Position numbers and translations under genes: made by a program. A DNA stretch of 64,000 nt, taken from Candidatus Magasanikiibacteriota bacterium. GTDB lineage: Bacteria; Patescibacteriota; Patescibacteriia; Magasanikbacterales; GWA2-37-8. The notes beneath the pieces are model-generated. The model searched no databases, was not told where the DNA came from, and was given only the letters and a program-made list of their open reading frames with translations. The DNA lies in assembly GCA_963840935.1 (NCBI GenBank), contig CAWJAS010000001.1, positions 448,875 to 512,874 on the forward strand, in the 5' to 3' direction. Below are positions 33,283-49,336 of the stretch, one piece after another (within the stretch, counting starts at the first letter, position 1; every line of letters starts with the position of its first letter).

Positions 33283-33966
33283 TTATTTTGCGTTTTTGTT
33301 CTCGAAATTAACCACAATAAATGCGTATGGCGTGTTTTGAGATTTATCGGAATGCTCAACGTATAAATTGACGCTTAATTTATTATCGCGAATAAATAAT
33401 ATTTGTTTGTAATTATGACCGGTCGTTTCGGAACTAATTGTAAAACCGGCCTCTTTTAATTTTGTTTCATAATAATGAATCATCGTTTGCGGTTCACTGG
33501 AAATATTATCCCATTCTATTCTTACGGTATCTTCATCATCGGGTGTCGGTTTAATTAATAGTTTCCATATTTCTCTGGCAACTTCGATTTTTTCCGTTTT
33601 GACTGTTGAGCTGGCGTCGCCCGTCTCGTTGTAGATTAATGGTGAAAGTAAAATTTTTGGAAAAAAAGTTGCCAGTTCCATACTGCGACTTTTGTATTTT
33701 CCGGAGATGACAGTAATTTTGTTAATGTTATACTGGTCATAAATCGGCACTTCGGAGGGGAAATAGGAGGGTAGGTTTTTAATTTCTTTTGGTCCGGCAC
33801 CAATAAATATTTTTATACCAATTACTATGGCAACGACAAAAATTAAAACACAACCACACCCGGAAAGGCAGGCGGTTGTAAACCATGGGCCGCGTTTTTT
33901 TAGTTCCTGAATTGGCGGTTCAATAATTTCAACACCACGCGTTAAATCGTCTGTTTTTGATGTCAT
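33283..33966 (-). CDS. Hypothetical membrane-anchored protein
   Basis: Single N-terminal TM segment (CLSGCGCVLIFVVAIVIGI). No recognizable domain. Confidence 0.4.
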   Translation of the reverse strand: MTSKTDDLTRGVEIIEPPIQELKKRGPWFTTACLSGCGCVLIFVVAIVIGIKIFIGAGPKEIKNLPSYFPSEVPIYDQYNINKITVISGKYKSRSMELATFFPKILLSPLIYNETGDASSTVKTEKIEVAREIWKLLIKPTPDDEDTVRIEWDNISSEPQTMIHYYETKLKEAGFTISSETTGHNYKQILFIRDNKLSVNLYVEHSDKSQNTPYAFIVVNFENKNAK

Positions 33967-34053
33967 AGTCTGAATAATTGTATCAGAATATCAGTATTTT
34001 GTGTAGAGCAGAATATGTGGTAAAATATGGCTATAATTTACTTGAAAAAAATT

Positions 34054-35418
34054 ATGAAACTATCATTTTTTGGGGCGGCAAAAGAGGTGACCGGCTCTTG
34101 TTCACTTTTGGAAACAAATACATCCGGCGTTTTAATTGATTGTGGCGCCTTTCAGGGGGGTGATTTTGTGGAGGAAAGAAATAACGACCCTTTTGTGTTT
34201 GAGGCTGAAAAATTATCAGCGGTAATAATAACCCATGCCCATCTTGACCACATTGGACGCTTGCCCATGCTTATTAAATCAAATTATAACGGATTTATTT
34301 ATGCCACTCCGCCGACAATTGAATTAATAAAAATTGTTTTGGAGGACGCGCATGATGTTATGGTGCACAATTCCAAAAAATACGGCTCGCCCGTATTATA
34401 CAGTTTGGATGATGTGGCTAAAGTTATTGAGCAATGCAAAAGCGTTGATTATTATGAAGAAAAATTTATTTCGGAACAAAAAGATTTATCTTTTAAATTT
34501 TATGAAGCCGGCCATATTTTTGGCTCTGCTTTTGTGGAAATAAAAACAGAAGGAAAAAAAATTATTTTTTCCGGTGATTTTGGAAACATTAATGTTCCTA
34601 TTTTGCGTGATTCCGATGATTTACCAAGCGATGTTGATGTTTTGATTTGCGAATCAACATATGGGAATAGAGAACATGATAATCGGTTAAATCGACAGGA
34701 TGCCATTATGGATATTGTTAAACGCGCAATGGAAAGAGGCGGAACACTGATGATGCCCGCTTTTTCAGTCGAAAGGACGCAGGAGATAATGTATGACCTT
34801 AATGAGTTGATTGACCACAGGAATGAATTGCCAAAGAATATTCCCATATTTTTGGATTCACCATTGGCTATTGAGGCAACTGAAGTTTTTGGGCGACATG
34901 TTAATTATTTTGACAAGGATGCAAAAAAATTCATTTTTTCCGGCGATGATTTATTCAATTTTTCCGGATTGAAAATTTGTTATTCAAGAGAAGAATCTAA
35001 AAATATTAATTCGGTTAAAGGTCCGAAGATTATTATTGCCGGCGCCGGCATGATGAACGGCGGTCGTATTCAGCATCATGCCCTCAGGTATTTGTTTGAA
35101 CCGAATAGCACCATATTTTTTACCGGTTTTCAGGCTTTTAGAACGCTGGGAAGAAAAATACTGGAAGGAAATTCGCCTGTTAATATTTTAGGACATTCGG
35201 TTGATGTTAAATGCCATGTTGAATATGTTGACGTGCTTTCGGCTCACGCTGATAAGAACCGCTTGTTTGAATGGGTAAGTAACAAAGGTAATGCGCCTAA
35301 AAAAATATTTTTAAATCATGGCGATATTGAGCAGATCGAGCCTTTTGCCGAGCGCATCAAAAACGAATTAAAAATAGAAGTTTACCCAGCGACTCCGGAA
35401 GAAGTTTACAATATTTAA
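34054..35418 (+). CDS. MBL-fold beta-CASP ribonuclease (RNase J-like)
   Basis: HAHLDH metallo-beta-lactamase motif, beta-CASP region and a C-terminal RMMBL-like segment. Start placed at the second ATG because the first overlaps the -10 element. Confidence 0.8.
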   Translation: MKLSFFGAAKEVTGSCSLLETNTSGVLIDCGAFQGGDFVEERNNDPFVFEAEKLSAVIITHAHLDHIGRLPMLIKSNYNGFIYATPPTIELIKIVLEDAHDVMVHNSKKYGSPVLYSLDDVAKVIEQCKSVDYYEEKFISEQKDLSFKFYEAGHIFGSAFVEIKTEGKKIIFSGDFGNINVPILRDSDDLPSDVDVLICESTYGNREHDNRLNRQDAIMDIVKRAMERGGTLMMPAFSVERTQEIMYDLNELIDHRNELPKNIPIFLDSPLAIEATEVFGRHVNYFDKDAKKFIFSGDDLFNFSGLKICYSREESKNINSVKGPKIIIAGAGMMNGGRIQHHALRYLFEPNSTIFFTGFQAFRTLGRKILEGNSPVNILGHSVDVKCHVEYVDVLSAHADKNRLFEWVSNKGNAPKKIFLNHGDIEQIEPFAERIKNELKIEVYPATPEEVYNI

Positions 35419-35499: not shown

Positions 35500-35551
35500 T
35501 TGACTAATGTATCTATGTGGTATAAAATGGATTGTAGTGGTGAGAAGTGGT
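35500..35551 (+). promoter_or_regulatory. mraZ promoter (TTGACT-17-TAAAAT) with three phased GTGGT repeats (35517, 35537, 35547), a putative MraZ operator
   Basis: Consensus promoter. Direct repeats at 10-nt phase resemble the GTGGG-type MraZ box arrays known in other bacteria. Confidence 0.55.
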
Positions 35552-35563
35552 AAATCAAATGTT

Positions 35564-35995
35564 ATGTTTATTGGTGAATATCAGCACAACCTAGACGATA
35601 AAGGGCGTTTAGCCATTCCTGTTAAATTCAGAAAAGAGCTTCAAAAAGGCGCAGTTGTTACCAGGGGATTGGATAATTGTTTGTTTCTATATACAAAAAC
35701 AGAATGGGAAAAATTGGCCCAAAAACTATCCGCCTTGCCGATAAGCCAATCAAACAGCCGAGCATTCGCCAGATTAATGCTTGCCGGCGCTATGGATGTT
35801 TTAATCGATAAACAAGGAAGAATAGTTTTGCCGGAATATTTACGGACTTTTGCCTCTTTAAAAAAAGAAATTATCGTAGCTGGATTATATGGACGTTTGG
35901 AACTATGGGATGCAAAGAAATGGTCTGATTACAAATTTATGACTGAAAAAGAAAGCGGTGAAATAGCGGAAAGAATGGCCGAATTAGGGGTTTAA
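35564..35995 (+). CDS. mraZ: Transcriptional regulator MraZ
   Basis: Duplicated SpoVT/AbrB-like halves with DxxxR motifs (NLDDKGRLAIP ... IDKQGRIVLP). Confidence 0.9.
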   Translation: MFIGEYQHNLDDKGRLAIPVKFRKELQKGAVVTRGLDNCLFLYTKTEWEKLAQKLSALPISQSNSRAFARLMLAGAMDVLIDKQGRIVLPEYLRTFASLKKEIIVAGLYGRLELWDAKKWSDYKFMTEKESGEIAERMAELGV

Positions 35996-36916
35996 TTGTA
36001 TATGCGACATGTACCTGTATTGTCAGATGAAGTGATTAAATTCTTGCGTTTGTCGCCGGGTAATAATGTTATTGATTGTACCTTGGGAGATGGCGGGCAT
36101 TCAAAGAGAATTTTGGAAGAAACGGCGCCTGACGGGAAATTACTTGGAATTGATTGCGACTCGGAATCGCTCAAAAGAGCTCAAGAATTTTTGGCTGATA
36201 ATACAAAAAGAATCGTATTTGTTCGCGCTAATTTCCGAAATTTAAAAAGCATAATTGACAACAATTTTAATTACAAAATAAATGGCATATTAATGGATTT
36301 GGGCTGGTCTACTCCTCAGTTTATGGAACGTGGCAGAGGATTCAGTTTTAACCTGCCGGTTGGTATCGATGAACCGCTTGATATGCGCTATGACAATTCA
36401 GAGAGTGAGATAACAGCACAAGAAATAGTTAATACTTATAGTGAAAATAAATTATCGGAAATATTTAGGCAATACGGTGAAGAGAAGTTTTATAAAGAAA
36501 TTGCCGTCGCCATTGTTGAAAAAAGAAAAATAAAAAAAATTAATAGCAGTAATGATTTGGTTGAAATAGTTTTAAGCGTTTATAGAAAAAAATTAAAATC
36601 GCGTCTGGATATTCCCCGAATAGGGAAAATACACCCGGCGACAAAAGTATTCCAGGCTCTGCGAATTGTGGTCAATGACGAGCTTGAGGCACTAAAACAA
36701 GCATTGCCTCAAGCTCTTGGCTCTCTTTGCCCCCAAGGAAGGTTGGCCGCTATCACATTTCATTCGCTCGAGGACAGAATAGTAAAACATTATTTTAAAG
36801 CGATTTCCGACCGAGCGATAATAATTACAAAAAAACCGATTATAGCGTCTTTGAGTGAAATCAATTCCAATCCCAAAGCCCGCAGTGCCAAGCTAAGAAT
36901 AATAGAAAAAATATGA
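35996..36916 (+). CDS. rsmH: 16S rRNA (cytosine1402-N4)-methyltransferase RsmH
   Basis: HVPVL start region and SAM-binding DCTLGDGGHS. Confidence 0.92.
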   Translation: MYMRHVPVLSDEVIKFLRLSPGNNVIDCTLGDGGHSKRILEETAPDGKLLGIDCDSESLKRAQEFLADNTKRIVFVRANFRNLKSIIDNNFNYKINGILMDLGWSTPQFMERGRGFSFNLPVGIDEPLDMRYDNSESEITAQEIVNTYSENKLSEIFRQYGEEKFYKEIAVAIVEKRKIKKINSSNDLVEIVLSVYRKKLKSRLDIPRIGKIHPATKVFQALRIVVNDELEALKQALPQALGSLCPQGRLAAITFHSLEDRIVKHYFKAISDRAIIITKKPIIASLSEINSNPKARSAKLRIIEKI

Positions 36917-37284
36917 GATTAGTCAGAAAAATTAGATATCAATTTGATGATTATAAAAGAATAATTAAGAATTATTTTGATTATTCTCGCTTGCCGGCAT
37001 GGCTTACCGGGCGAATTTCTAGGTGTTCTATTTTTGTGATTCTTGTGGTGTGTTCCGTTTGCTATGTTATGCAAATAGCAAACGCCACGAGTAGTGGCTA
37101 TGAAATGCGCGACTTGCAAAGGCAGGTTAATTTATTGAACGAAGAAATAAATAAAATAAACATTGAAGCCGTATCGTATGGTTCTTTGTTAAACCTGGAA
37201 AAGCGCATTCAAGAGTCTGGAATGTCTCGAGTGTCAAATATTGTTTATGTAACTGCTCCGGATGTGATGTTCGCCAAAAAATAA
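36913..37284 (+). CDS. ftsL: Cell division protein FtsL-like (single TM plus coiled coil)
   Basis: Position after rsmH in the dcw cluster. Topology is a TM segment followed by a leucine-zipper-like helix. Confidence 0.55.
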   Translation: MRLVRKIRYQFDDYKRIIKNYFDYSRLPAWLTGRISRCSIFVILVVCSVCYVMQIANATSSGYEMRDLQRQVNLLNEEINKINIEAVSYGSLLNLEKRIQESGMSRVSNIVYVTAPDVMFAKK

Positions 37285-37306
37285 TGACTCGTATTTATAT
37301 ATTTAT

Positions 37307-37333
37307 TCCGGCTATTCCGCCGGATTTTTTTTT
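37307..37333 (+). terminator. Rho-independent terminator (TCCGGC-loop-GCCGGA followed by T9)
   Basis: Read directly from the sequence. Confidence 0.7.
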
Positions 37334-37362
37334 ATGGTATAATTCCAGCGATTATTTATCAT

Positions 37363-37716
37363 ATGCTTATTGCGGTTTTGCCAAGAATTTTATTGGAAAC
37401 AATAGTTGATATTCTGTTGTTTCCTTTATGGTGGTACACAAAAGGCGCCTGGCGCGCCGTTGTTTATTGCGCCAAACTTTTTAAATACGGCAATGAATTG
37501 ATGAACCCCGGTTTGTGGCTCAAAAATATTTTCGTGCCGATGTTCGGTCAATATGATATTCAGGGCAGAATTATCAGTTTTTTAATGAGATTTGCTCAAA
37601 TTATCGCCCGGTCCATTGGGTTGTTTTTGTGGTTGATTGTTTGTGTTATTATATTTTTTTGTTGGCTCGGCATCCCCATAATTATTATTTGGGGTCTTCT
37701 AAATGTATATAAATAA
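37363..37716 (+). CDS. Hypothetical small membrane protein
   Basis: Several hydrophobic helices. Translationally adjacent to the Clp-like gene. Confidence 0.35.
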   Translation: MLIAVLPRILLETIVDILLFPLWWYTKGAWRAVVYCAKLFKYGNELMNPGLWLKNIFVPMFGQYDIQGRIISFLMRFAQIIARSIGLFLWLIVCVIIFFCWLGIPIIIIWGLLNVYK

Positions 37717-37718
37717 AT

Positions 37719-40499
37719 ATGTTATTTGAACCGGTTCAGCCAATTAATATTTTGACTTGTCCGTCATGTAAGGGCACCGGCTTGCGTGGTTTTAGTAAAT
37801 GCTCGGTATGTAAAAGCCAATCAATGATTTTGTGGCGCAGAAATAAAATTTTGCAGTGGGCGGAGCCTTTGACTCGCCAAAACATCGCTTTGCAGAACGG
37901 TCGCAGAATTTGGAATAAAATTAGAAGAATAACTTTGATTGTTTTATGGCTTAATTCATGGATTTGGGCAGTTTTTTTAATGTATCGGGATGGTGTTTTT
38001 GATAAAATCGTAAGTTATCCCGAAAATGCTTTATTAATTTTTAATTCGTTATCGCCATTTCCCAAAGTGCTTTTTTGGCTCGGTTTGATTTTTTTGACTT
38101 ATTTGTGGCATAGAATAATATCAGAAAAAAAGCATCATATTTTTGTTGAAAAATATGAGTATAAAAATGATATCGACGATGCTAAAATTGATTTGGGTGA
38201 TTTATCCGCGTCTGATTGGGGGTCGATTGGTCGCACAAAGGCGAAGCGTATTTCAATAGATAAGGTTTATACGGATGAAGCATTGTCGGCATTATTTGAA
38301 ACTTACAGTTTTGCCGATAAAAATAATTATGCGGAAGTAAGTGTGGAGCATCTTTTTTATTCCTTGCTTGGTTTTAATCGAATTTCCAATTTATTTATCA
38401 GACTCGGTATTCCGGCAAAAATTCTTCAAAGTAATATTTCTCTTCTTTTTAACGCTCCTTCGCAGACTCAGAATCAAAATAGTATGCCGTTAATTTCTGA
38501 GGGCGTAAAACAAGTGATGTTTAACGCCTATGAAGAAGCCTATGAAGCTCACCAAGAATTTGTTATGGTGACGGAATTGCTATCTGCATGCGTCAAGCAA
38601 TCGCCGGTTATTCAAGAGGTTATTTATGATTTGAATATTGATAAAGATAAACTGACGAACGTGATTGAATGGGCGAGAATCAGAGAAAGACTATATCGCC
38701 AATACACTAAACAATCTGCCAAAGCTTCCCGTCGCTCAAAGCATGGCATGGATAAGGCAATGACCGCCTTAGCGACGCAATATTTGAATAAATTTAGCGA
38801 GGATATGACGTTAAAGGCCCAGCTTGATTATTATGATTTTTGCGTCGCCAGAGAAAAAGAATTCGATGAAATTTTTCGAGTGGCGAGTAGTGGTGCTTCA
38901 AATATACTTTTGGTTGGCGAACATGGCGTCGGAAAAAGAACAATAATGGAAGGGTTGGCCGAAAGAATAATCTCCGATGACGTACCAGATCGTTTATCGG
39001 ATAAACGATTGGTTAAATTAAACATATCTTCTTTGCTTGCGGGGACCACCGCGGCCGGCGCAATTGAAAGATTGGCGATTATAATGAATGAAATCGCGCG
39101 CGCGCGAAACGTAATTTTATTTATTAATAATATTCACGAAATTGTTGGTGTATCAGCCGGAGAACAAGGAAGTTTGGATTTAGCCGGCACATTATCAGAA
39201 TATTTGTCCGATGGAAGATTTTTGATTTTTGCCACAACCACAAATGAAGATTTTGCCCGGCATATTCAAAATACCTCGCTTGCCAATATTGCGCAGAGAA
39301 TAGATATTGGCGAAATGGACGAAAATCAAGCGATACAAGTTGTAGAATCAAAAATAATATTTATTGAGCATAAAAGTAGAGTATTTTTTTCTTATGATGC
39401 GGTAGAAAAAACAGTCCAATTGTCGGCCAGATATTTGCACGATATGTTTTTACCCGGCAGTGCTTTGGAAATAGCTCGAGAGGCCGCGGTTTATACCAGA
39501 ACAAAAAAGGGCGCTGATTCTCTTGTTAGTGGCGAAGAAGTTGGCAAAGTAATTTCTAAAAAAACCGGAATACCGGTGACCTCGATTTCATCCGATGAAT
39601 CCGATAAATTATTGAAGCTTGAAGAAGAAATGCACAAAAGAGTAGTTGGCCAGGATGAAGCGGTTGATTTGATTGCCAATGCTTTGAGAAGGGCTAGGGT
39701 CGAAATTCGTTCAAAAAATCGTCCGATTGCCAATTTCTTGTTTCTGGGTCCAACTGGAGTGGGCAAAACAGAATTGGCAAAAACAATTTCGGAAGTTTAT
39801 TTTGGTGGGGAAGAAAGGATGATAAGGCTTGACATGAGCGAATACCAAGACAAAACGGGAATATATCGACTGATTGGGGCTCCGGGCGAACAGGGAACCG
39901 GCATATTAACCGAAGCTATCAAACGTCATCCATTTACTTTGTTGTTACTTGACGAAGTGGAAAAGGCCGACCCCGATATTTTGAATATATTTTTGCAAGT
40001 CATGGATGATGGCCGTTTGACGGACAGTACCGGAAAAGTGGTTGATTTTACTAATTGTATAATTATTGCCACATCAAATGCCGGCACGCAATATGTGCAA
40101 GACCAAATGCGAGAGGGTATCGGGAGTGAACAAATTAAAGAACGCCTGCTTCACGGTGAGTTAAAAGATTATTTTAAACCTGAATTTTTGAATCGCTTTG
40201 ATGGTATTGTTTTATTCAAAGGTTTGACGAAGGAAGATATTAAAAAGATTGCTTCCATAATGCTCAAACGCGTTGCTTTGGATTTGAGTCAAAAAGGAAT
40301 TGAGCTTATTGTCGAAGATGAAGCTCTTGAGTATTTGGCCACCGTCGGTTACGATCCGGAATTTGGAGCCAGGCCGATGCGTCGAGCGCTTCAGGAGCGA
40401 ATCGAAAATAAGTTGGCAGAAATGATTTTATCGGGAGCCGTCAAAAGAAGGGACAAGGTTATTATCGGAGAAAATGGCAATATCTCAACTGTATTTTAA
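37719..40499 (+). CDS. Membrane-anchored ClpA/ClpC-like double-AAA+ ATPase: N-terminal zinc ribbon, two TM helices, Clp_N repeats, D1 (Walker B degenerate to NN) and D2 (intact)
   Basis: CPSCKGTG...CSVCKS zinc ribbon. D1 Walker A GEHGVGKRT with Walker B ILFINNIHE. D2 Walker A GPTGVGKTELAK, Walker B LLLLDEVEKA, sensor TSNAG and arginine finger GARPMRR. Confidence 0.8.
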   Translation: MLFEPVQPINILTCPSCKGTGLRGFSKCSVCKSQSMILWRRNKILQWAEPLTRQNIALQNGRRIWNKIRRITLIVLWLNSWIWAVFLMYRDGVFDKIVSYPENALLIFNSLSPFPKVLFWLGLIFLTYLWHRIISEKKHHIFVEKYEYKNDIDDAKIDLGDLSASDWGSIGRTKAKRISIDKVYTDEALSALFETYSFADKNNYAEVSVEHLFYSLLGFNRISNLFIRLGIPAKILQSNISLLFNAPSQTQNQNSMPLISEGVKQVMFNAYEEAYEAHQEFVMVTELLSACVKQSPVIQEVIYDLNIDKDKLTNVIEWARIRERLYRQYTKQSAKASRRSKHGMDKAMTALATQYLNKFSEDMTLKAQLDYYDFCVAREKEFDEIFRVASSGASNILLVGEHGVGKRTIMEGLAERIISDDVPDRLSDKRLVKLNISSLLAGTTAAGAIERLAIIMNEIARARNVILFINNIHEIVGVSAGEQGSLDLAGTLSEYLSDGRFLIFATTTNEDFARHIQNTSLANIAQRIDIGEMDENQAIQVVESKIIFIEHKSRVFFSYDAVEKTVQLSARYLHDMFLPGSALEIAREAAVYTRTKKGADSLVSGEEVGKVISKKTGIPVTSISSDESDKLLKLEEEMHKRVVGQDEAVDLIANALRRARVEIRSKNRPIANFLFLGPTGVGKTELAKTISEVYFGGEERMIRLDMSEYQDKTGIYRLIGAPGEQGTGILTEAIKRHPFTLLLLDEVEKADPDILNIFLQVMDDGRLTDSTGKVVDFTNCIIIATSNAGTQYVQDQMREGIGSEQIKERLLHGELKDYFKPEFLNRFDGIVLFKGLTKEDIKKIASIMLKRVALDLSQKGIELIVEDEALEYLATVGYDPEFGARPMRRALQERIENKLAEMILSGAVKRRDKVIIGENGNISTVF

Positions 40500-40854
40500 T
40501 ATGCTTTATTTAATAAAAGTATTTATCAAGGACCCGTGGATTATTGTCCCGCTCGCAACCGGATTGGCGACGCAATTATTTGTTTGGCCATTTATTTTTT
40601 TTCAATTAGGCCAAAGAAGTGATTATTTATTTCTTCACTATAATATAATTTTCGGAGTTGATTTGGTTGGTCCGTGGTGGAAAATTTTGTATTTACCGCT
40701 TGGAGGGCTTGGTATTATTATTCTTAATATTGCTTTATCTTTGTATATTTATAATCACGACAAATTAATATCTCGGATGCTACTTTTTTTTGCCGCTCTT
40801 TTTTCTCTGTTTTTGGTTTGGGCGGTTTATCTGGCCGTTGATATTAATTTATAA
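40474..40854 (+). CDS. Hypothetical small membrane protein
   Basis: Hydrophobic ORF between the Clp-like gene and ftsW. Confidence 0.3.
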   Translation: MAISQLYFNMLYLIKVFIKDPWIIVPLATGLATQLFVWPFIFFQLGQRSDYLFLHYNIIFGVDLVGPWWKILYLPLGGLGIIILNIALSLYIYNHDKLISRMLLFFAALFSLFLVWAVYLAVDINL

Positions 40855-40856
40855 AT

Positions 40857-41963
40857 ATGGCTAATTCTTTGACTTCAAAAAAGACAGACGGTCTTTTTTT
40901 GGTTTACGTTGGTATAATTGTACTATTTGGGCTGGTTGTTTTATTATCCGCCAGTTCGGCCTATGGATATTCAAAATTCGGTGATACTTATTACTTTGTG
41001 AAACGTCAACTTTTGTATGGGGTATTGCCGGGGTTGGTGTTATTTTTTATTTTTTATAGATTAAATACTAAGATCTGGCAAAAGATTTCATGGTCAATTT
41101 ATTTCATAAGCATTTTGGGTTTAGTCGCGGTTTTTATTCCAAGCATTGGAGCGGATTTTAACAAGTACGCAAAATCCTGGGTCGATATCGGTTTTATTCA
41201 TTTTCAACCGGCTGAATTCGCTAAATTAGCGTTAATCATTATTTCCGCAAAATTATTAAGCGATCCGGATACAGATTTAAATGATTTTAAATTCGGTCTA
41301 TTACCGGTATTAATTACGGCAATGCCTTTGTTTCTTTTGGTGATGCTTCAACCGGATTTGGGAACACTTATAATTATGGCCGGTATTTTTTGTGGCATGC
41401 TTTATTTGGGGAAAATACCAAAAACATATTTGACAATAATAATTTTATGCGGAGTGACGGCCTTTACTTTGCTTGCTATTGTAAAACCATACAGAATGGA
41501 CAGGTTGACTATTTTTTTACACCCCGAACTTGACCCACAAGGGATAGGTTACCATGTAAATCAAGCGTATTTGGCGGTTGGGTCTGGTGGTTTTTGGGGA
41601 TTGGGTCTTGGTCATTCCAGGCAAAAACATCAGTATTTGCCCGAAGTCCATGGCGATTCGATTTACGCGATTGTTGCCGAGGAAATGGGTTTTTTAATCT
41701 CTCTTGGATTAATTGTTCTTATTTTATTGATTTCGTGGCGTTGCCTAAAAATCGCCAAGGAATCATCGGATGAATTTAATTATTTGTTAATAGCAGGTAT
41801 TGCAATCTGGTTTTTTTGGCAATCTTTTATTAATATCGGCGCGATGATAGGTATTTTGCCTTTAACCGGCGTAACTTTGCCGTTTGTGAGCCACGGTGGT
41901 TCGTCTATGATGGTTTGTTTGGCCTCAGTTGGTATTGTGGCGAGTGTGAGTAAGCGCGGATAA
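40857..41963 (+). CDS. ftsW: SEDS-family peptidoglycan glycosyltransferase (FtsW/RodA)
   Basis: SEDS motifs (FQPAEFAKL, GDSIYAIVAEEMGF, PFVSHGGSS). dcw context favours FtsW. Confidence 0.8.
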   Translation: MANSLTSKKTDGLFLVYVGIIVLFGLVVLLSASSAYGYSKFGDTYYFVKRQLLYGVLPGLVLFFIFYRLNTKIWQKISWSIYFISILGLVAVFIPSIGADFNKYAKSWVDIGFIHFQPAEFAKLALIIISAKLLSDPDTDLNDFKFGLLPVLITAMPLFLLVMLQPDLGTLIIMAGIFCGMLYLGKIPKTYLTIIILCGVTAFTLLAIVKPYRMDRLTIFLHPELDPQGIGYHVNQAYLAVGSGGFWGLGLGHSRQKHQYLPEVHGDSIYAIVAEEMGFLISLGLIVLILLISWRCLKIAKESSDEFNYLLIAGIAIWFFWQSFINIGAMIGILPLTGVTLPFVSHGGSSMMVCLASVGIVASVSKRG

Positions 41964-42035: not shown

Positions 42036-42908
42036 TTGTATAAACAGTTTATAGAATGTATGGATTTGTCTATTATTACAGTGATTCATAATGATCGAGA
42101 AAATATTTTACGTCAATTACGTTCTGTAAATAACGGTTTTAACAATCTCCAGATTGAACAATGGGTGGTTGATAATGGCTCTGAAGATGGTTCGGCTGAT
42201 GAAATTGCCAAAGAATTTCCTTCCGTACATTTAATAAAAAACTTGGATAACAAAGGATTTGCTACGGCAAACAATCAGGCGGTAGAAAAATCTTCCGGCG
42301 ATTTTTTTCTTTTTTTAAATCCCGATATGGCTGTTTCACCGGGTAGCTTGGACATGATTACCGATTGGATGCGAAAACGGGCTGAAGTTGGGATTGCCAG
42401 CTGTAAATTAATTGATGAAAACGGAGTTTTTAATGAAGAAGCAAAACCGAGAAGATTCCCAAAAGTGACCGACCAACTGGCTATTATTTTAAAATTACCC
42501 CATTTGTTTCCGAGTATATTAAAAAAATATTTATATTCTGATTTTAATCCAGACGAAGAAAGGGAAGTAGACACGGTTCGGGGTTCATTTATGATAATGC
42601 GTAAATCATTTGTTGATGCCGTTGGGTACGCGTTTGATCCAAGATTTTTTATTTGGTTTGAAGACGTTGATATTTGCAAAGAGTGTTGGAATAGAGGGTT
42701 AAAAGTTTTTTACACGCCAATAATTTCTTGCGTTGATTTTGTTGGTCAAACATTCAAAAAAAAGCCTACTGTTTGGAAGCAAGTGAATTTTACCAAAAGC
42801 ATGCTCCAATATTTCAAAAAGTGGGAGCCTTGGTACAATTGGATTTGGATTGCCGTATTTAGACCGGTTGGAATTACATTAACCGCTATTCAAAATATAT
42901 TAAAATAA
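42036..42908 (+). CDS. GT2-family glycosyltransferase
   Basis: ITVIHND...VVDNGSEDGS...DNKGFATANNQ. Confidence 0.8.
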   Translation: MYKQFIECMDLSIITVIHNDRENILRQLRSVNNGFNNLQIEQWVVDNGSEDGSADEIAKEFPSVHLIKNLDNKGFATANNQAVEKSSGDFFLFLNPDMAVSPGSLDMITDWMRKRAEVGIASCKLIDENGVFNEEAKPRRFPKVTDQLAIILKLPHLFPSILKKYLYSDFNPDEEREVDTVRGSFMIMRKSFVDAVGYAFDPRFFIWFEDVDICKECWNRGLKVFYTPIISCVDFVGQTFKKKPTVWKQVNFTKSMLQYFKKWEPWYNWIWIAVFRPVGITLTAIQNILK

Positions 42909-42915
42909 ATAATTT

Positions 42916-44007
42916 ATGAAAAAACTAAGTGTAAATTTGGTTATTAAAAATGGCGCTCGTTATATTCCGTTTATTATTTCATCACTAAAAAAGCAAACTT
43001 TTCAAGATTTTGAAGTCGTTTTTATCGACAATGCCTCTGATGATAGCACGGCTGATTTGCTTCAGGATAGTTTGGTCAAAGAAAATATCGAGCATCGTAT
43101 TTTGCGTAATGCGGATAACAAGGGTTTTGCTGTCGGACAAAATCAGGCTTATAAAGAATCCAAAACGCCATATTTTTTACTACTTAACGCGGACACATAT
43201 TTAATGCCCGATGTTCTCGAAAAAGCGATTAATTTTCTCGACCTGCATCCTGAAACCGCTGCTGTCGCTCCAAGGCTGATGCGCTGGGATTTTGAATCAT
43301 CTTTAGCGGGTTACAGAGACGGAACGGAAATTTCATCGGCCGTTCATCACGGGTTTACATCACAAATTGACGCTATCGGAATCAGATTATTTAGAAACAG
43401 ACGAGCTGTGGAATGGTTAACAAAAGAAGAATGGGCCAAAGACAGTCAATCCGATGACGTTCGTAAAATATTTGAAAAATCAGCTCTTGAGGTTTTTGGA
43501 GTATCGGGCGCCTTTGCTATTTACAGAAGAAGCATCATCGAAAAAGTATTATTACCGGGCGATAATTTATTCGACCCCACATATCATTCATACAAAGAAG
43601 ACCTTGATTTGGCGTACAGATTGAGAAATGCCGGTTATGTTTCATATGTTTTACTTGATACGGCGGTATATCACGATAGAACCGGCGCCGGGCCAAAAAA
43701 GATGAGTGATTTTGCCGCGCTAATGAATAAAAAAAGACAATCATATTTTGTGCGATTTCATTCATACAAAAATCATCTGCGCACATTATACAAAAATGAA
43801 TATTGGCAAAATTTGCTAATGGATTTTCCGTTAATTTTTTGGTATGAATTCAAAAAATTTATTTTTTTATTGTTTAGCAATCCAAAAGTGATATTTTTGG
43901 GCTGGCGAGAGATTTGCAGGGAGAGAAAATACACAAAGGAAGCAAGAAAATCGATAATCAAATCCAGAAAAATGTATTGGAAGGGTTTAAGACGTTGGTG
44001 GTTATAA
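42916..44007 (+). CDS. GT2-family glycosyltransferase (rhamnosyltransferase-like)
   Basis: FIDNASDDST...DNKGFAVGQNQ. Confidence 0.8.
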   Translation: MKKLSVNLVIKNGARYIPFIISSLKKQTFQDFEVVFIDNASDDSTADLLQDSLVKENIEHRILRNADNKGFAVGQNQAYKESKTPYFLLLNADTYLMPDVLEKAINFLDLHPETAAVAPRLMRWDFESSLAGYRDGTEISSAVHHGFTSQIDAIGIRLFRNRRAVEWLTKEEWAKDSQSDDVRKIFEKSALEVFGVSGAFAIYRRSIIEKVLLPGDNLFDPTYHSYKEDLDLAYRLRNAGYVSYVLLDTAVYHDRTGAGPKKMSDFAALMNKKRQSYFVRFHSYKNHLRTLYKNEYWQNLLMDFPLIFWYEFKKFIFLLFSNPKVIFLGWREICRERKYTKEARKSIIKSRKMYWKGLRRWWL

Positions 44008-44009
44008 TT

Positions 44010-44841
44010 ATGTTTGATGTTTGCGTCACAATTGTTAACACGAATGAAAGAGAAGAGATTGAAAAATCTCTTGATTCCTTATATTCCGAATTCGATTGAA
44101 TCGATGTTGGATTTTTGCGTCGTAATTGTTGATAATGCCTCTAAAGACAATATTCAGGAATTAATTCAAAAGTACAAAAATTTATCGGTAATAAAGCAGG
44201 ATAAAAACAATGGTTTTGGTTATTCGCATAATCGTGCTTTTCAATCGGTCGAAGCACGATATTATTTTTTGTTAAATCCCGATACCGAATTCCCGGCTGG
44301 CAGAAATTTTTTGCGTCGTTTTGTTGATTTTATGGATAACAATCCAAAGATCGGTTTGGCCGGTCCAAAAATTTATTATCCCGATGGAAGTTTGCAGTAT
44401 TCTTGTTATAGATTTCCCACTTTTTTTCAGCCAATTTTTAGCCGTACCAGTTTGGGAAGAACACTGATGGGGCAAAAAGCGACCGAAAACTATTTAATGA
44501 AGGATTTTGACCATAATTCTACGATTCCGGTTGATTGGGTAATGGGGTCGGCCATGTTTTTTCGGCGTGATGCATATAAAGAAATCGGCGGTTTTGATGA
44601 ACGGTTTTTTATGTATGCCGAAGACAGTGATTTATGCAGGCGTTTGTGGGAAGCGGGTTGGGCGGTATATTACGTTCACGACGGTTGGCTTCGCCATGTA
44701 CACGGGCGAGCTTCGGCCAAAACTCAAGGAGTGCTCAAATCAATTTTCAGAAATCGCTACACCAGAATCCATATTTATAGTTGGTTAAAATATTTTATTA
44801 AGTGGCGCAATAATAGAAAATTTTATTCGCACAATATATGA
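44010..44841 (+). CDS. GT2-family glycosyltransferase with an apparent frameshift. The N-terminal strand (MFDVCVTIVNTNEREEIEKSLDSLYSEF, 44010-44099) is in a different frame from the rest (44014-44841). This could be a pseudogene or a sequence error.
   Basis: GT-A beta1/alpha1 is encoded in frame A and stops at 44097-44099. Beta2 onward (DFCVVIVDNASKD...) continues in frame B. Removing a single nucleotide near 44095 would restore one ORF. Confidence 0.5.
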
Positions 44842-45932
44842 TTTATCCCAAAATCGCCATTGTGTATTTGTGCTGGGCCGATGAACCGATAAAATATTTG
44901 CGAGATGCGCTTGATGCAATATCTAATCAAGATTATCCAAAAAATAGTTTGATTTTGCACGTTGTTTATAATGGGCCAAGAGTAAATGAAGAAAGTTTTG
45001 CCTCGTTTATTGAAAGCGAAACCAAGAAAAGGCAAGATAATCTACCAGAGACGGTATTTGTTGATTTAAAAAGTAATATTGGATTTTCCGCAGGAAATAA
45101 CTTGGGTGTCAGGCAAGCCATTGCCAAAGGGGCGGAATACGTTTTTTTGCATAATTCTGATGGATATTTGGCGAGTGATACAATAAGCAAATTATTTGAA
45201 GCCATAGAAAGCGATAAAAAAATAGGCGTTTGTCAGCCTTTAATTTTGCTTGACCCCGAAAAAAATCTTATTAATTCCGCGGGTAATAATTTGCATTACA
45301 TGCAAATAGGTTATTGCGATAAGTATCGTCAAAAAATAGACGAAAATTTATTGCCAAATACTGATATTGGTTATGCGAGCGGAGCCGGAGTTTTGATGCG
45401 AGTTGATTTGTTGAATGAGCATGGTTTATGGAATGAACGCTTTTTTCTTTATCATGAAGATACGGAATATTCTGAACGTTTGCGTCTCTTGGGTTACAAA
45501 ATAAAATTAGTCGGTAACGCCGTGTTTTATCACAAGTATGAGTTCAAAAATAAGCCGAATAAATTTTTTTGGATCGAAAGAAATCGCCATGGTCTGGAAT
45601 TAATGTTTTACAAATGGCCGACATTGTTATTATTGCTTCCGTTGGAAATATTATTTAATCTGGGTTTGCTGGCGTCGTCAATATTTGGCGGTTGGTTAAA
45701 AGAATTGTTAAAAGTTTATGCATATTGGTTAAGTCCAAAAAATTGGCGGGAATGGATGGCTGATCGCAAAATTATTCAAAGTAAACGCACGATGACCGAC
45801 AGAAAATTATTGGCATCCATGACCCCGTTTATATCTTTGGGAGATTTTAAAGCTCCAAAGATAGTTGAGATGTTGGCTAATTTTGTCTTTACAATTTATT
45901 GGTTTTTAATTAAAATATTAATCTGGTGGTAG
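44838..45932 (+). CDS. GT2-family glycosyltransferase with a C-terminal membrane segment
   Basis: IAIVYLCWADEP...NIGFSAGNN GT-A signature with a hydrophobic C-terminus. Confidence 0.8.
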   Translation: MIYPKIAIVYLCWADEPIKYLRDALDAISNQDYPKNSLILHVVYNGPRVNEESFASFIESETKKRQDNLPETVFVDLKSNIGFSAGNNLGVRQAIAKGAEYVFLHNSDGYLASDTISKLFEAIESDKKIGVCQPLILLDPEKNLINSAGNNLHYMQIGYCDKYRQKIDENLLPNTDIGYASGAGVLMRVDLLNEHGLWNERFFLYHEDTEYSERLRLLGYKIKLVGNAVFYHKYEFKNKPNKFFWIERNRHGLELMFYKWPTLLLLLPLEILFNLGLLASSIFGGWLKELLKVYAYWLSPKNWREWMADRKIIQSKRTMTDRKLLASMTPFISLGDFKAPKIVEMLANFVFTIYWFLIKILIWW

Positions 45933-45941
45933 CACACTTTA

Positions 45942-47045
45942 ATGAATACAATTATGAAAATATTAGTCTGCGGAGGAGCCGGGTTTATCGGTTCAAACTT
46001 CATACATCATATTTTGGAAAAACACCCTCATTACGAAGTGGTTAATTATGATAAATTAACCTACGCCGGCAATTTGGAAAACCTAAAAGATATTGAAAAT
46101 AATTTGGAGTATTCAACCCGTTATACATTTATTCGCGGAGATATTTGTGATTACAAACTTCTTTCGGAAGTAGTGGAAAAATATAAAATTGACCATGTGA
46201 TAAATTTTGCGGCTGAAACTCATGTTGACAGGTCGATTTATGGCGATTGTTCCGATTTTGTAATGACAAATACCTATGGTGTTTTAATGATATGCAATTT
46301 GGTGCGATATTATGGTTTGCAGAAATTTGTGAATGTTTCCACTGATGAAGTATATGGGACGCTTGGTCTTGATGAGGACAGAAAATTTACCGAGCTAACT
46401 CCAATCGAACCGAATATGCCATATGCCGCGGCGAAAGCCGGCGGAGATATGGTTTGCCGTTCATATTTTGTGACGCACAAACTCCCGGTTGTGGTGACGC
46501 ATTGCTCTAATAATTACGGACCATATCAATATCCTGAAAAATTAATACCGTCTTCGGTTTTTAGATTATTAAAAAACAAGCCAATTCTTATGCATGGTTC
46601 CGGAGTGAATGTGAGAGATTGGATTTATGTGCGAGATCACTGTTCGGCACTCGACCTGATGCTTCATAGCGGAGTTCCCGGAGAAATATATAATGTTGGC
46701 GTGGACAACGAAAGAAACAATTTGGAAATTGCGAAAATGATTTTATCGGCAATGAACAAATCGGAATCTATGATTGAGTTTGTGGAGGATAGACCCGGCA
46801 ATGATTTGCGCTACGCCATTGATTCATCAAAAATTGAATCTCTTGGATGGAAACCGGTTTATACCAGAGAGCAATTTAACGTTGGAATGTCAGAGACGAT
46901 TAATTGGTATTTGACACACCGTGATTGGGTGGAAAACTTATGGTCAAAGCATGTTGAGGCGTATGACATCAATCACGCGCCGACGCGTGAAAAAAGAGAA
47001 AAAATTCACCAAGAAAAAATAATAGGCGGTAACGAATCGATATAA
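45942..47045 (+). CDS. rfbB: dTDP-glucose 4,6-dehydratase
   Basis: GGAGFIGSN and the YxxxK catalytic region (YAAAKAGGD). Overall RmlB architecture. Confidence 0.92.
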   Translation: MNTIMKILVCGGAGFIGSNFIHHILEKHPHYEVVNYDKLTYAGNLENLKDIENNLEYSTRYTFIRGDICDYKLLSEVVEKYKIDHVINFAAETHVDRSIYGDCSDFVMTNTYGVLMICNLVRYYGLQKFVNVSTDEVYGTLGLDEDRKFTELTPIEPNMPYAAAKAGGDMVCRSYFVTHKLPVVVTHCSNNYGPYQYPEKLIPSSVFRLLKNKPILMHGSGVNVRDWIYVRDHCSALDLMLHSGVPGEIYNVGVDNERNNLEIAKMILSAMNKSESMIEFVEDRPGNDLRYAIDSSKIESLGWKPVYTREQFNVGMSETINWYLTHRDWVENLWSKHVEAYDINHAPTREKREKIHQEKIIGGNESI

Positions 47046-48314: not shown

Positions 48315-48317
48315 TAT

Positions 48318-48929: not shown

Positions 48930-48951
48930 CAACTTGAAAATAAGTTGTTAT

Positions 48952-49194: not shown

Positions 49195-49280
49195 AATTGA
49201 ATGAAATCAGTATAGTAAATATATGGTCTATTGTCAACTGCGAACAATATAAAAAAGTAATATTTTTAGTGATATATTTT

Positions 49281-49310: not shown

Positions 49311-49336
49311 ATTTTGCTAACCTGAGGCATCGTTCA

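What the first reader, a model, noticed from the sequence alone, without database searches (positions are those of the whole stretch)
36913..41963. Minimal dcw cluster in which ftsI and the mur ligases are replaced by a membrane-tethered zinc-ribbon Clp-like AAA+ ATPase flanked by two small membrane proteins
Between ftsL and ftsW there is no ftsI, murE, murF, mraY or murD. The interval instead holds a 117-aa membrane protein, a 926-aa ClpA/C-like unfoldase and a 126-aa membrane protein. The unfoldase carries an N-terminal C4 zinc ribbon and two TM helices ahead of the Clp_N repeats. Its D1 Walker B is degenerate (NN instead of DE). The ClpP-docking tripeptide position reads IGS rather than IGF/LGF, suggesting it does not partner with ClpP. 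It may be a dedicated membrane-protein extractase or disaggregase coupled to the divisome. I know of no well-characterized Clp ATPase with this architecture and genomic placement.
Basis: partly seen in the sequence, partly recalled or inferred. Interest (0 to 1): 0.65.

Follow-up and report, generated by a model that had tools for sequence, protein, structure and literature searches.

The report
Membrane-tethered Clp-like ATPase without pore tyrosines
A conserved gene pair in uncultivated CPR bacteria encodes a small membrane protein and a membrane-anchored relative of the Clp/Hsp100 protein-unfolding machines; this relative keeps one working ATPase ring but has lost the residues such machines use to grip and thread proteins, so it probably works differently, and nobody appears to have described it.

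Summary
The order mraZ-rsmH-ftsL-X117-Clp(926 aa)-Y-ftsW is in the window, with no ftsI, murE, murF, mraY or murD. The Clp-like protein has a C4 zinc ribbon, two TM helices and a Clp_N-like domain.

Its D1 ring is degenerate: the Walker A Thr, Walker B DE and Arg fingers are all lost. D2 is intact. There is no M-domain and no conserved ClpP-docking tripeptide; "IGS" is not conserved.

The true unit is X117+Clp. X117 lies directly upstream in 76 of 80 genome loci, and also in Uhrbacteria, Kerfeldbacteria and Falkowbacteria relatives. The pair follows a conserved terminator plus an extended -10 promoter after ftsL.

Y belongs with ftsW, not with Clp. A class B PBP exists elsewhere in related genomes, so ftsI is displaced rather than functionally replaced. 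In one Kerfeldbacteria locus a fully canonical Hsp100 sits two genes downstream.

My best reading is a ClpP-independent ATP-driven remodeller or switch at the membrane that does not thread substrates, analogous to Torsin with its membrane cofactor. It is linked to envelope biogenesis by gene position only. I file it as a new variant of a known kind. Function is untested.

The parts
35507..35995 (+). mraZ (context; first gene of the upstream operon)
   Evidence: PF02381 3.4e-40; found upstream in most related loci.
35996..36916 (+). rsmH/mraW, 16S rRNA methyltransferase (context)
   Evidence: PF01795 5.8e-100; upstream in 61 of 67 informative loci.
36913..37284 (+). ftsL-like bitopic protein (123 aa; one TM plus coiled coil)
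   Evidence: Overlaps rsmH by 4 nt. Weak NF053549 FtsL hit, 2.6e-5, below cut-off. TM at about residues 31-60. Homologues upstream in 61 of 67 loci.
37307..37333 (+). Intrinsic-terminator-like hairpin TCCGGCTATTCCGCCGGA followed by T9, just after ftsL
   Evidence: A hairpin plus T-run at the same place in most related loci.
37335..37343 (+). Extended -10 promoter-like element TGGTATAAT, 20 nt upstream of the X117 start codon
   Evidence: Read directly from the sequence. TGnTATAAT or TGnTATACT conserved at the same position in most related ftsL-X117 spacers.
37363..37716 (+). X117: small membrane protein, predicted helical hairpin; obligate partner of the Clp-like gene
   Evidence: No Pfam, NCBIfam or PADLOC family. 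219 homologues, all 'hypothetical' and from Patescibacteria. Invariant motif FPxWW..G / NxFxPMxGQxD..G..SF..R. AlphaFold pLDDT 93 with helices 2-47 and 66-116. No structural neighbour in the PDB. Directly upstream of Clp in 76 of 80 loci and in L078, L080, L088-L091.
37719..40499 (+). 926-aa membrane-tethered Clp/Hsp100-like double AAA+ protein
37758..37811 (+). C4 zinc ribbon (C14-x2-C17 ... C28-x2-C31); the first half matches the DnaJ-type CxxCxGxG pattern
   Evidence: Invariant cysteines; beta strands in the model. The DnaJ-like resemblance comes from reading the sequence, not from a database hit (Pfam finds nothing in residues 1-175).
37926..38126 (+). TM hairpin: TM1 residues 70-90, poorly conserved outer loop 91-112, TM2 residues 113-136
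   Evidence: Hydropathy detects TM1 only; helices H53-90 and H113-136 in the model. Basic flanks on both cytoplasmic sides. Column identity of the loop 0.29 against 0.55 for the TM helices.
38244..38633 (+). Clp_N-like N-domain (residues 176-305)
   Evidence: Aligns to the ClpA and ClpB N-domains. Pfam Clp_N only 0.0085, below cut-off; precomputed PF02861 on homologues.
38730..38798 (+). Most conserved non-motor segment, RSKxGMDKAMTALATPYLNxFS (residues 338-360); residues 338-350 are predicted disordered
   Evidence: Column identity 0.86; pLDDT below 50 for residues 338-350.
38799..39518 (+). D1 AAA+ module, catalytically degenerate: Walker A GVGKRT, pore loop TTAAGAIERL (canonical KYRGEFEERL), Walker B INN (canonical IDE), Arg fingers ANIAQ (canonical ERRFQ)
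   Evidence: Degenerate across the superfamily too.
39639..40496 (+). D2 AAA+ module plus D2-small domain. Intact: Walker A GPTGVGKTE, Walker B LLLDEVEKA, sensor 1 N787, Arg finger R826, sensor 2 GARPMRR. No M-domain precedes it.
39876..39902 (+). D2 pore-1 loop GAPGEQGTG: a 4-residue deletion relative to GAPPGYVGY, with no aromatic residue
   Evidence: HMMER alignment to ClpC (6em9) and ClpB (1qvr); MAFFT alignment with E. coli ClpA and ClpB. Family consensus GAPGEKGTG. Hypervariable across the superfamily.
40501..40854 (+). Y: 117-aa three-TM protein (the ORF opens at 40474; probable start 40501). Partner of ftsW, not of Clp.
   Evidence: The Y-ftsW pair occurs away from Clp in L086 and L087.
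40857..41963 (+). ftsW (SEDS peptidoglycan polymerase), 2 nt after Y
   Evidence: PF01098 3.6e-95; TIGR02614 353.8 bits, above its cut-off.

Best explanation
The core of this locus is a conserved two-gene module, X117 plus a membrane-tethered Hsp100/Clp-class ATPase. It is found in Magasanikbacteria and related CPR lineages (Uhrbacteria, Kerfeldbacteria and Falkowbacteria are named among the sources).

The ATPase is anchored by an N-terminal cytoplasmic zinc ribbon and a TM hairpin. A flexible acidic linker of about 40 residues leads to a Clp_N-like domain and two AAA+ modules in the cytoplasm.

D1 is a catalytically dead structural ring. D2 is the only motor. There is no M-domain, so no ClpB-type coupling to DnaK. 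There is no conserved ClpP-docking tripeptide, so it is not a protease partner.

Both pore-1 loops have lost the aromatic residue. The D2 loop is hypervariable across the superfamily while the D2 ATP site is invariant. I therefore infer that ATP hydrolysis does not drive processive polypeptide threading. Instead it probably drives a conformational switch or remodelling step at the inner face of the membrane. X117 would serve as membrane receptor, cofactor or client through its conserved cytoplasmic helical hairpin. This would resemble Torsin with its membrane cofactors LAP1/LULL1.

The likely field of action is envelope biogenesis. In this window the module is co-oriented and tightly packed with Y-ftsW. 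In most relatives it is followed by a WecA/MraY-family phosphotransferase. It usually sits just after mraZ-rsmH-ftsL.

Shown: the architecture, the state of each motif, their conservation, the X117-Clp linkage, and promoter- and terminator-like sequence elements conserved between ftsL and X117. Inferred: hexamer formation, non-threading action, a physical X117-Clp complex, and envelope clients.
For: Architecture and fold:
- (Foldseek to ClpC and ClpB, E about 1e-55).

D1 is dead and D2 is intact in 121 family members and in about 95 superfamily representatives:
- D2 Walker A and B are essentially invariant.
- D1 Walker B is DE in only 1 of the roughly 95 representatives (P0353).
- D1 pore loop is never KYR.

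Pore loops:
- The D2 pore-loop deletion is seen in independent alignments.
- Only about 8 representatives keep [PSA]-G-[YF] at the canonical D2 pore position.

Other absences:
- No M-domain: a single-stretch match to ClpA and the alignment.
- No ClpP tripeptide.

X117-Clp linkage:
- 76 of 80 loci, with a gap of typically 1-4 nt.
- Holds in Falkowbacteria-, Uhrbacteria- and Kerfeldbacteria-type loci.
- Conserved terminator plus TGnTATAAT upstream of X117.

X117 itself:
- Confident two-helix hairpin model with a basic, conserved loop region.

Paralogue control:
- A fully canonical Hsp100 (KYRG, GYVG, DE in both rings) lies two genes downstream of the membrane form in L089. The motif losses therefore mark a specialised paralogue, not lineage-wide drift.

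Neighbours:
- ftsW in the window clade; a GT4 WecA/MraY-family gene in 55 loci.

Precedent:
- Torsins are Clp/Hsp100-related, membrane-associated, lack aromatic pore loops and depend on cofactors (PMC5425593).
Against: - No experiment or complex model supports an X117-Clp contact.
- About 8 deep-branching representatives keep a PPG[YF]-type D2 loop, so the ancestral protein may have threaded substrates and some members may still do so.
- Non-aromatic loops do not formally exclude translocation.
- The link to envelope biogenesis rests on gene position only. The module has its own promoter. In distant relatives it lies next to ATP synthase, yidC, secA or nusG-rplKA genes.
- Hexamer formation is assumed from homology.
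- Unlike Torsin, this protein keeps its own Arg finger and sensor 2, so it need not depend on a cofactor for ATPase activity.
Confidence: 0.42

Rival explanations
1. One reading: a genuine membrane-protein extractase or disaggregase. It would thread substrates from the membrane through its channel using non-canonical pore loops, and it would serve the divisome.
For: - The D1 face and N-domain are tethered towards the membrane, as in FtsH or Msp1-type extractases (topology).
- The D2 motor is complete.
- A minority of superfamily members retain a PPG[YF]-type D2 loop.
- Many double-ring AAA+ proteins have one degenerate ring (general knowledge).
- Conserved position after ftsL.
Against: - Neither ring has an aromatic pore-1 residue in the Magasanikbacteria clade.
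- The D2 loop varies freely in length and sequence while the ATP site is invariant. That pattern is not expected of a substrate-gripping element.
- The module has a separate promoter and is separable from ftsL.
- No ftsW or ftsL neighbour in several distant relatives.
Confidence: 0.25
2. A general membrane-proximal proteostasis or regulatory ATPase whose place beside dcw genes is only historical. It would have no specific role in division or envelope synthesis.
For: - Own promoter after a terminator.
- Insertions of 2-8 kb between ftsL and X117 in L012, L028, L044 and L050.
- Variable downstream genes.
- Unrelated neighbours in L025, L065, L078-L080, L090 and L091.
Against: - The neighbourhood is kept between lineages as distant as Magasanikbacteria and Uhrbacteria.
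- In both arrangements the gene immediately downstream, tightly coupled, is a polytopic enzyme that uses undecaprenyl-linked substrates: FtsW, or a WecA/MraY-family GT4.
Confidence: 0.2
3. A ClpP-coupled AAA+ protease subunit of the ClpA/ClpC type that happens to be membrane anchored.
For: - Public annotations call it 'ATP-dependent Clp protease ATP-binding subunit' or ClpC.
- ClpA-like lack of an M-domain.
- Against ClpC, the family consensus A-G-[LVI] aligns with the A-G-F tip.
Against: - Scores are far below the equivalog cut-offs: ClpA 528 against 993; ClpB 558 against 1232.
- No [LIVM]-G-[FLM] in 0 of 80 superfamily loops and in only 2 of 121 family members. The glycine itself is not conserved across the superfamily.
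- The loop is 6 residues shorter than in ClpC (29 against 35 residues between the anchor motifs).
- No pore tyrosines.
- No ClpP or ClpS gene in the window or in 1.3 Mb of related flanks, although this is not a whole-genome test.
Confidence: 0.04
4. A decayed pseudo-enzyme or purely structural scaffold with no ATPase function.
For: Extensive loss of motifs in D1 and of both pore loops.
Against: - D2 Walker A, Walker B, sensor 1, Arg finger and sensor 2 are invariant in 121 of 121 family members, and D2 Walker A and B in nearly all superfamily members.
- The D2 large domain is the most conserved region, with column identity 0.87.
- Intact full-length ORFs occur in more than 100 lineages.
Confidence: 0.04

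Closest known systems
ClpA / ClpC (class I Clp/Hsp100 unfoldases, partners of ClpP)
   Same: Clp_N-like N-domain, two AAA+ modules and a D2-small domain. No long ClpB-type M-domain, as in ClpA. Best sequence and structure matches are ClpC (6em9, 1e-132; Foldseek 4e-55) and ClpA (TIGR02639, single stretch covering residues 190-916).
   Different: N-terminal zinc ribbon plus TM hairpin. D1 Walker A, Walker B and Arg fingers are lost. No KYR or GYVG pore tyrosines. No conserved ClpP tripeptide. No ClpC-type short M-domain. Scores are about half the equivalog cut-offs.
ClpB / Hsp104 disaggregases
   Same: ClpP-independent double-ring Hsp100. The D2 module is about 50% identical (1qvr D2, 333 bits).
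   Different: No coiled-coil M-domain, hence no known route to DnaK coupling. No pore tyrosines. Dead D1. Membrane anchored. At least one CPR genome carries a canonical Hsp100 beside the membrane form (L089).
Torsin ATPases with LAP1/LULL1 (eukaryotic)
   Same: Related to Clp/Hsp100 D2, membrane-associated, lack aromatic pore loops, and work with membrane-spanning partner proteins (PMC5425593). This is an analogy of mechanism only.
   Different: Torsins have a single AAA+ module, lack their own Arg finger (the cofactor supplies it) and reside in the ER lumen. Here the Arg finger and sensor 2 are intact, there are two rings, and the partner X117 is a small helical hairpin rather than an AAA-like fold. 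No homology beyond the AAA+ core is claimed.
FtsH and Msp1/ATAD1 (membrane-anchored AAA+ machines)
   Same: N-terminal membrane anchor placing a hexameric AAA+ ring at the cytoplasmic membrane face.
   Different: Those proteins have aromatic pore loops and thread substrates, and FtsH carries a protease domain. They belong to the classical AAA clade, not the Hsp100 class.
Canonical dcw cluster (mraZ-rsmH-ftsL-ftsI-murE-murF-mraY-murD-ftsW-murG...)
   Same: mraZ-rsmH-ftsL at the head and ftsW downstream in the window. murG, murJ and a murA-like gene lie elsewhere in the window.
   Different: ftsI and murE/F/D/mraY are absent from the interval. A terminator and a new promoter follow ftsL. ftsW arrives as part of a separate Y-ftsW-glycosyltransferase block, and only in the window's clade.

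Membership tests
Clp/Hsp100 class I (two-ring ClpA/B/C type) | Two tandem AAA+ modules, the second of AAA_2 type with a ClpB_D2-small domain | tested here: met
   PF07724 4.4e-52, PF10431 4.3e-26, AAA_lid_9 2.9e-7. Foldseek to ClpC and ClpB at 1e-55 to 1e-47.
Clp/Hsp100 class I (two-ring ClpA/B/C type) | Double Clp_N repeat N-domain | tested here: inconclusive
   Pfam Clp_N 0.0085, below the gathering score. Aligns with the ClpA and ClpB N-domains. The model is helical over residues 176-305. PF02861 is precomputed on homologues.
Clp/Hsp100 class I (two-ring ClpA/B/C type) | Catalytic D1: Walker A GKT, Walker B hhhhDE, Arg fingers | tested here: not met
   GVGKRT, ILFINN and ANIAQ here. Family consensus GK[RK][ST], [HN]N, NVFTK. 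Also degenerate across the superfamily.
Clp/Hsp100 class I (two-ring ClpA/B/C type) | Aromatic pore-1 loops (KYR in D1, GYVG in D2) | tested here: not met
   D1 reads TTAAGA. D2 reads GAPGEQGTG with a 4-residue deletion.
ClpA/ClpC/ClpX-type ClpP partner | [LIV]-G-[FL] tripeptide at the tip of the D2 helix-loop-helix | tested here: not met
   E-G-I / I-G-S in the query. Family consensus A-G-[LVI]-S. 0 of 80 superfamily loops and 2 of 121 family members match [LIVM]G[FLM].
ClpA/ClpC/ClpX-type ClpP partner | clpP present in the genome | not testable with these tools
   No ClpP hit in the 64-kb window or in 80 flanking loci. Whole genomes could not be read.
ClpB/Hsp104 | Coiled-coil M-domain inserted in the D1 small domain | tested here: not met
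   A gap of more than 100 columns opposite the E. coli ClpB M-domain. ClpB models match in two stretches, ClpA in one.
NCBIfam equivalogs ClpA (TIGR02639), ClpB (TIGR03346), ClpV, ClpG, ClpK | Score at or above the curated cut-off | tested here: not met
   528 against 993; 558 against 1232; 434 against 885; 430 against 1900; 430 against 1900.
dcw (division and cell wall) cluster | mraZ-rsmH-ftsL head followed by ftsI, mur ligases, mraY and ftsW in one co-oriented block | tested here: not met
   The head and ftsW are present. ftsI, murE, murF, mraY and murD are absent. A terminator and promoter lie between ftsL and X117.
FtsL | Small bitopic protein with a leucine-zipper-like periplasmic coiled coil, encoded directly after rsmH | tested here: inconclusive
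   Position, size, one TM helix and a heptad-like region fit. The only sequence support is NF053549 at 24 bits against a cut-off of 55. No hit to E. coli FtsL.
Torsin-like (works like, not member) | Hsp100-related AAA+ without aromatic pore loops, acting with a membrane cofactor | tested here: inconclusive
   The loop loss and the obligate membrane-protein neighbour are shown. Physical interaction and cofactor dependence are untested. The Arg finger is retained, unlike in Torsin.
Anti-phage defence systems (PADLOC) | Match to a defence-system protein model beyond the generic AAA+ core | tested here: not met
   Only generic D2-core hits (PDC-M37B, DolB). X117 and Y have none. The genomic context is housekeeping.

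The most novel reading that the evidence does not exclude
X117 plus the membrane Clp is a bacterial counterpart of the Torsin-cofactor principle. It would be an ancient Hsp100 paralogue, found so far only in CPR lineages, that has given up substrate threading. It would use its single active ring as an ATP-driven switch on a dedicated small membrane partner, controlling enzymes of division or lipid-carrier glycan synthesis (FtsW, or a WecA/MraY-type transferase). It would then be a new functional class within Clp/Hsp100.
Probability: 0.3. Interest if true: 0.8.

Novelty: new variant of a known kind. Interest (0 to 1): 0.65.

Why it matters
Hsp100/Clp proteins are the textbook case of substrate threading by aromatic pore loops. 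Here a large, strongly conserved bacterial branch keeps a pristine D2 ATPase but has discarded both pore tyrosines, D1 catalysis, the M-domain and the ClpP loop. It has gained a membrane anchor and an obligate small membrane partner. That gives a natural test of what an Hsp100 ring can do without threading.

The branch has at least 150 clusters at 50% identity and is currently annotated as 'ClpC' or 'Clp protease subunit'.

It also bears on how CPR bacteria, which have minimal genomes, organise division and envelope synthesis. The module occupies the slot after ftsL, where ftsI and the mur genes normally sit. Finally, it flags a systematic mis-annotation in public CPR genomes.

Tried and rejected
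1. Exact look-up of the window protein in public assemblies found nothing on record.
2. Literature searches for CPR dcw/Clp, Magasanikbacteria Clp, and membrane or zinc-ribbon Hsp100 found no description of the family.
4. Pfam on the N-terminal 175 residues alone gave no family, so the DnaJ-like CxxCxGxG resemblance stays a reading of the sequence.
5. Rfam on the whole window found only three tRNAs and no RNA element in the ftsL-X117 spacer.
6. PADLOC gave only generic AAA+ core hits, so a defence system was rejected.
7. I considered that the common downstream GT4 gene is MraY, which would put X117-Clp exactly in the ftsI-murE-murF slot. I rejected this as unproven. WecA scores 111-121 bits and MraY 62-85 bits, both far below their cut-offs.
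8. I considered Y a second partner of Clp and rejected it.
9. I considered 'IGS' a decayed ClpP loop. It is not conserved, so it is not informative.

Full report
**1. What is in the window**

The + strand carries these genes in order:
- mraZ (35507-35995)
- rsmH (35996-36916)
- a 123-aa ftsL-like bitopic protein (36913-37284)
- X117 (37363-37716)
- a 926-aa Clp-like protein (37719-40499)
- a small three-TM protein, Y (ORF from 40474; probable start 40501)
- ftsW (40857-41963)
- four GT2 glycosyltransferases and sugar-nucleotide enzymes

The interval holds no FtsI, MurE, MurF, MraY or MurD homologue, and neither does the rest of the 64-kb window (phmmer with the E. coli proteins). The window does hold a murA-like gene, murJ and murG. 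The lineage therefore makes peptidoglycan but has a scattered dcw set. Homologues name the source as Patescibacteria, mostly Magasanikbacteria.

**2. Anatomy of the 926-aa protein**

Pfam finds AAA_2 (4e-52), ClpB_D2-small (4e-26), an AAA lid and only a sub-threshold Clp_N. NCBIfam places it at about half the cut-off of every Hsp100 equivalog. ClpA matches in one stretch and ClpB in two. The best solved relatives are ClpC, ClpB and ClpA.

I aligned it to ClpC and ClpB from the PDB search and to E. coli ClpA and ClpB fetched for the purpose. Columns were counted over 121 family members. The results:
- **Zinc ribbon.** An invariant C4 ribbon (C14, C17, C28, C31). Its first half reads CxxCxGxG.
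- **Membrane anchor.** A TM hairpin (residues 70-90 and 113-136) with basic cytoplasmic flanks and a poorly conserved outer loop. A disordered acidic linker follows (residues 137-175).
- **N-domain.** Residues 176-305 align to the ClpA and ClpB N-domains.
- **D1.** Walker A is GK[RK][ST], so the Mg-binding Thr is lost. Walker B is [HN]N instead of DE. The Arg fingers read NVFTK instead of ERRFQ. The pore loop is TTPAGAVERL instead of KYRGEFEERL.
- **M-domain.** None.
- **D2.** Walker A, Walker B, sensor 1, Arg finger and sensor 2 are invariant. The pore-1 loop is GAPGEKGTG, a 4-residue deletion that removes the GYVG tyrosine.
- **ClpP loop.** The loop that carries IGL/VGF in ClpA/ClpC reads A-G-[LVI]-S in the family and E-G-I-G-S here.

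No [LIVM]-G-[FLM] occurs in 0 of 80 superfamily loops, and in only 2 of 121 family members.

The AlphaFold model (pLDDT 81.5) agrees with this domain order. The most conserved non-motor segment is residues 338-360 (RSKxGMDKAMTALATPYLN), with column identity 0.86. Residues 338-350 are predicted disordered, which suggests a docking motif.

**3. The family is large and old**

A profile of the N-terminal 560 residues was run against 1.84 billion cluster representatives. It found at least 150 representatives with E below 1e-63, and about 100 of them are full length.
- 97 of 98 full-length representatives have N-terminal TM segments.
- 62 of 98 match a simple C4 pattern.

Sources that carry names are Patescibacteria, Uhrbacteria and Kerfeldbacteria. 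The genome scan adds Falkowbacteria.

Across this superfamily:
- D2 Walker A and B are essentially invariant.
- D1 Walker B is DE in only one representative (P0353); elsewhere it is EN, ED, DN, HN or NN.
- D1 never has KYR.
- The D2 pore loop varies in length and is rich in Gly, Ser and Pro. Only about 8 representatives keep [PSA]-G-[YF] at the canonical position.

An invariant ATP site beside a freely drifting pore loop is the opposite of what a substrate-gripping loop should show.

**4. Gene neighbourhood**

I analysed 80 genome loci with up to 10-kb flanks. Further loci for distant members came from exact look-ups.

*X117 and Clp.*
- X117 lies directly upstream of the Clp gene in 76 of 80 loci; the other four are truncated. 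The gap is usually 1-4 nt.
- A profile of X117 recognises the upstream 120-131-aa gene in Falkowbacteria-, Uhrbacteria- and Kerfeldbacteria-type loci at 1e-22 to 1e-38.
- X117-Clp is the invariant unit.

*Upstream.*
- mraZ-rsmH-ftsL lies upstream in 61 of 67 informative loci, and in the Uhrbacteria locus L088.
- The ftsL-X117 spacer almost always holds a GC-rich hairpin with a T-run, followed by TGnTATAAT. In the window the hairpin is at 37307-37324, the T9 run reaches 37333, and TGGTATAAT is at 37335-37343.
- Insertions of 2-8 kb occur there in four loci.
- In L025, L065, L078-L080, L090 and L091 the upstream genes are unrelated: secA/secDF, nusG-rplKA, ATP synthase, and yidC.
- The module therefore looks like its own transcription unit, parked after ftsL. 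No transcript data were available to confirm this.

*Downstream.*
- In 55 loci the order is a GT4 polyprenyl-phosphate sugar-phosphate transferase, then DUF192, then rplU. The GT4 gene scores better against WecA than MraY, and both scores are sub-threshold.
- Only six loci, the closest relatives, share the window's Y-ftsW-GT2 arrangement.

*Y.*
- Y has 26 homologues.
- In L086 and L087 it sits directly before ftsW inside polysaccharide clusters with no Clp gene nearby.
- Y is ftsW's companion, not Clp's.

*ftsI and a canonical Hsp100.*
- A 591-aa class B PBP (SpoVD/PBP2-like, 378 bits) lies 5.5 kb upstream of mraZ in L062, and partly in L067. ftsI has moved; it has not been lost or functionally replaced.
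- In the Kerfeldbacteria locus L089 a canonical 857-aa Hsp100 lies two genes downstream of the membrane form. It has GEPGTGKT, KYRG, IILFIDE, GYVG and VILFDEIEKA. The membrane protein is therefore a specialised paralogue, not a lineage-typical ClpB.

**5. X117**

- It has 219 homologues, all annotated 'hypothetical', with no Pfam, NCBIfam or PADLOC family.
- Invariant residues cluster in FPxWW..G and NxFxPMxGQxD..G..SF..R.
- The model is confident (pLDDT 93). Two long helices (2-47 and 66-116) are joined by the conserved loop.
- Hydrophobic ends lie at residues 1-23 and about 85-112. The basic middle points to a cytoplasmic helical hairpin between two TM segments. The orientation is inferred from the positive-inside rule.
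- No solved structure resembles it.

**6. How it most likely works**

*Shown:*
- a membrane tether
- a dead D1
- an intact D2
- no pore aromatics
- no M-domain
- no ClpP tripeptide
- an obligate small membrane-protein neighbour
- promoter- and terminator-like elements conserved ahead of X117
- envelope-enzyme neighbours
- coexistence with a canonical Hsp100

*Inferred:*
- The protein forms an Hsp100-type hexamer with its N-face towards the membrane.
- ATP turnover in D2 drives a conformational or remodelling cycle rather than processive threading.
- X117 is its receptor, cofactor or client.
- The targets belong to division or lipid-carrier glycan synthesis.

The nearest mechanistic precedent is Torsin. 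Torsin is related to Clp/Hsp100, is membrane-associated, lacks aromatic pore loops and depends on membrane cofactors (PMC5425593). Here, however, the Arg finger is retained. Confidence is about 0.42.

*Rivals:*
- a true extractase using non-canonical loops (0.25)
- a membrane ATPase whose dcw position is only historical (0.20)
- a ClpP partner (0.04)
- an inert scaffold (0.04)

**7. Comparison, novelty and verdict**

The protein belongs to the Clp/Hsp100 class by fold and by its D2 module. It fails the defining tests for ClpA/ClpC (ClpP loop, pore tyrosines, active D1) and for ClpB (M-domain). It also falls below every curated equivalog cut-off. Nothing describing this family was found in the profile libraries or in the paper library.

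I rate it a new variant of a known kind. There is a real chance (about 0.3) that it is a new functional class of Hsp100.

It needs correction on four points: the unit is X117-Clp rather than X-Clp-Y, the replacement of ftsI is positional only, an unfoldase role is doubtful, and coupling to the divisome is unproven.

Noticed in passing
window 40501-41963; L086:8001-9474; L087:8001-9466: Y (117 aa, three TM helices, no family) and the SEDS gene ftsW form a tightly coupled pair of their own. The pair recurs inside polysaccharide and glycosyltransferase clusters in other Magasanikbacteria, next to rpmA. Y may be an unrecognised small partner of a SEDS polymerase.
   Followed up: partly
L089:9333-11906 (Kerfeldbacteria, GCA_016182495.1): A canonical 857-aa Hsp100 with all motifs intact lies two genes downstream of the membrane-tethered paralogue. 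A 171-aa gene lies between them.
   Followed up: partly
L005:8044-9589 and 54 other loci; L090:9671-11253: Downstream of the Clp gene most relatives carry a GT4 polyprenyl-phosphate sugar-phosphate transferase followed by DUF192 and rplU. The GT4 gene scores better against WecA than MraY, both sub-threshold. Whether it is the lineage's MraY is unresolved.
   Followed up: partly
L062:337-2112; L067:10-975: A class B penicillin-binding protein (SpoVD/PBP2-like) lies about 5.5 kb upstream of mraZ in two Magasanikbacteria. It is detached from ftsL and ftsW.
   Followed up: partly
window 34027-35418 (+): A beta-CASP metallo-beta-lactamase-fold ribonuclease lies just upstream of mraZ, conserved at this position in most related loci. 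Its best NCBIfam hit is the type VII CRISPR Cas14 model (391 bits, cut-off 800), then aCPSF1. It is probably a housekeeping RNase.
   Followed up: no
L005:12891-15005 and about 32 other loci: A conserved protein of about 700 aa with no Pfam or NCBIfam match recurs a few genes downstream of the module, after recR-ybaB-dnaB on the opposite strand.
   Followed up: no
window 4319-9210 (+): A complete hrcA-grpE-dnaK-dnaJ heat-shock operon. The organism therefore has an Hsp70 system, although the membrane Clp lacks the M-domain needed to couple to it.
   Followed up: no
window 48000-50000: A local GC rise (0.45 against about 0.37) with loss of GC skew. It coincides with a largely non-coding stretch carrying two tRNA-Pro genes (49120-49194 and 49608-49682, - strand).
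   Followed up: no
window 33283-33966 (-): A 227-aa protein with an N-terminal TM segment and no family match, between murJ and the beta-CASP RNase.
   Followed up: no
window 42036-47045 (+): Directly after ftsW come four GT2 glycosyltransferases and a dTDP-glucose/GDP-mannose-type dehydratase. The same block follows Y-ftsW in L086 and L087. ftsW is thus embedded in a cell-surface glycan cluster rather than a mur cluster.
   Followed up: partly
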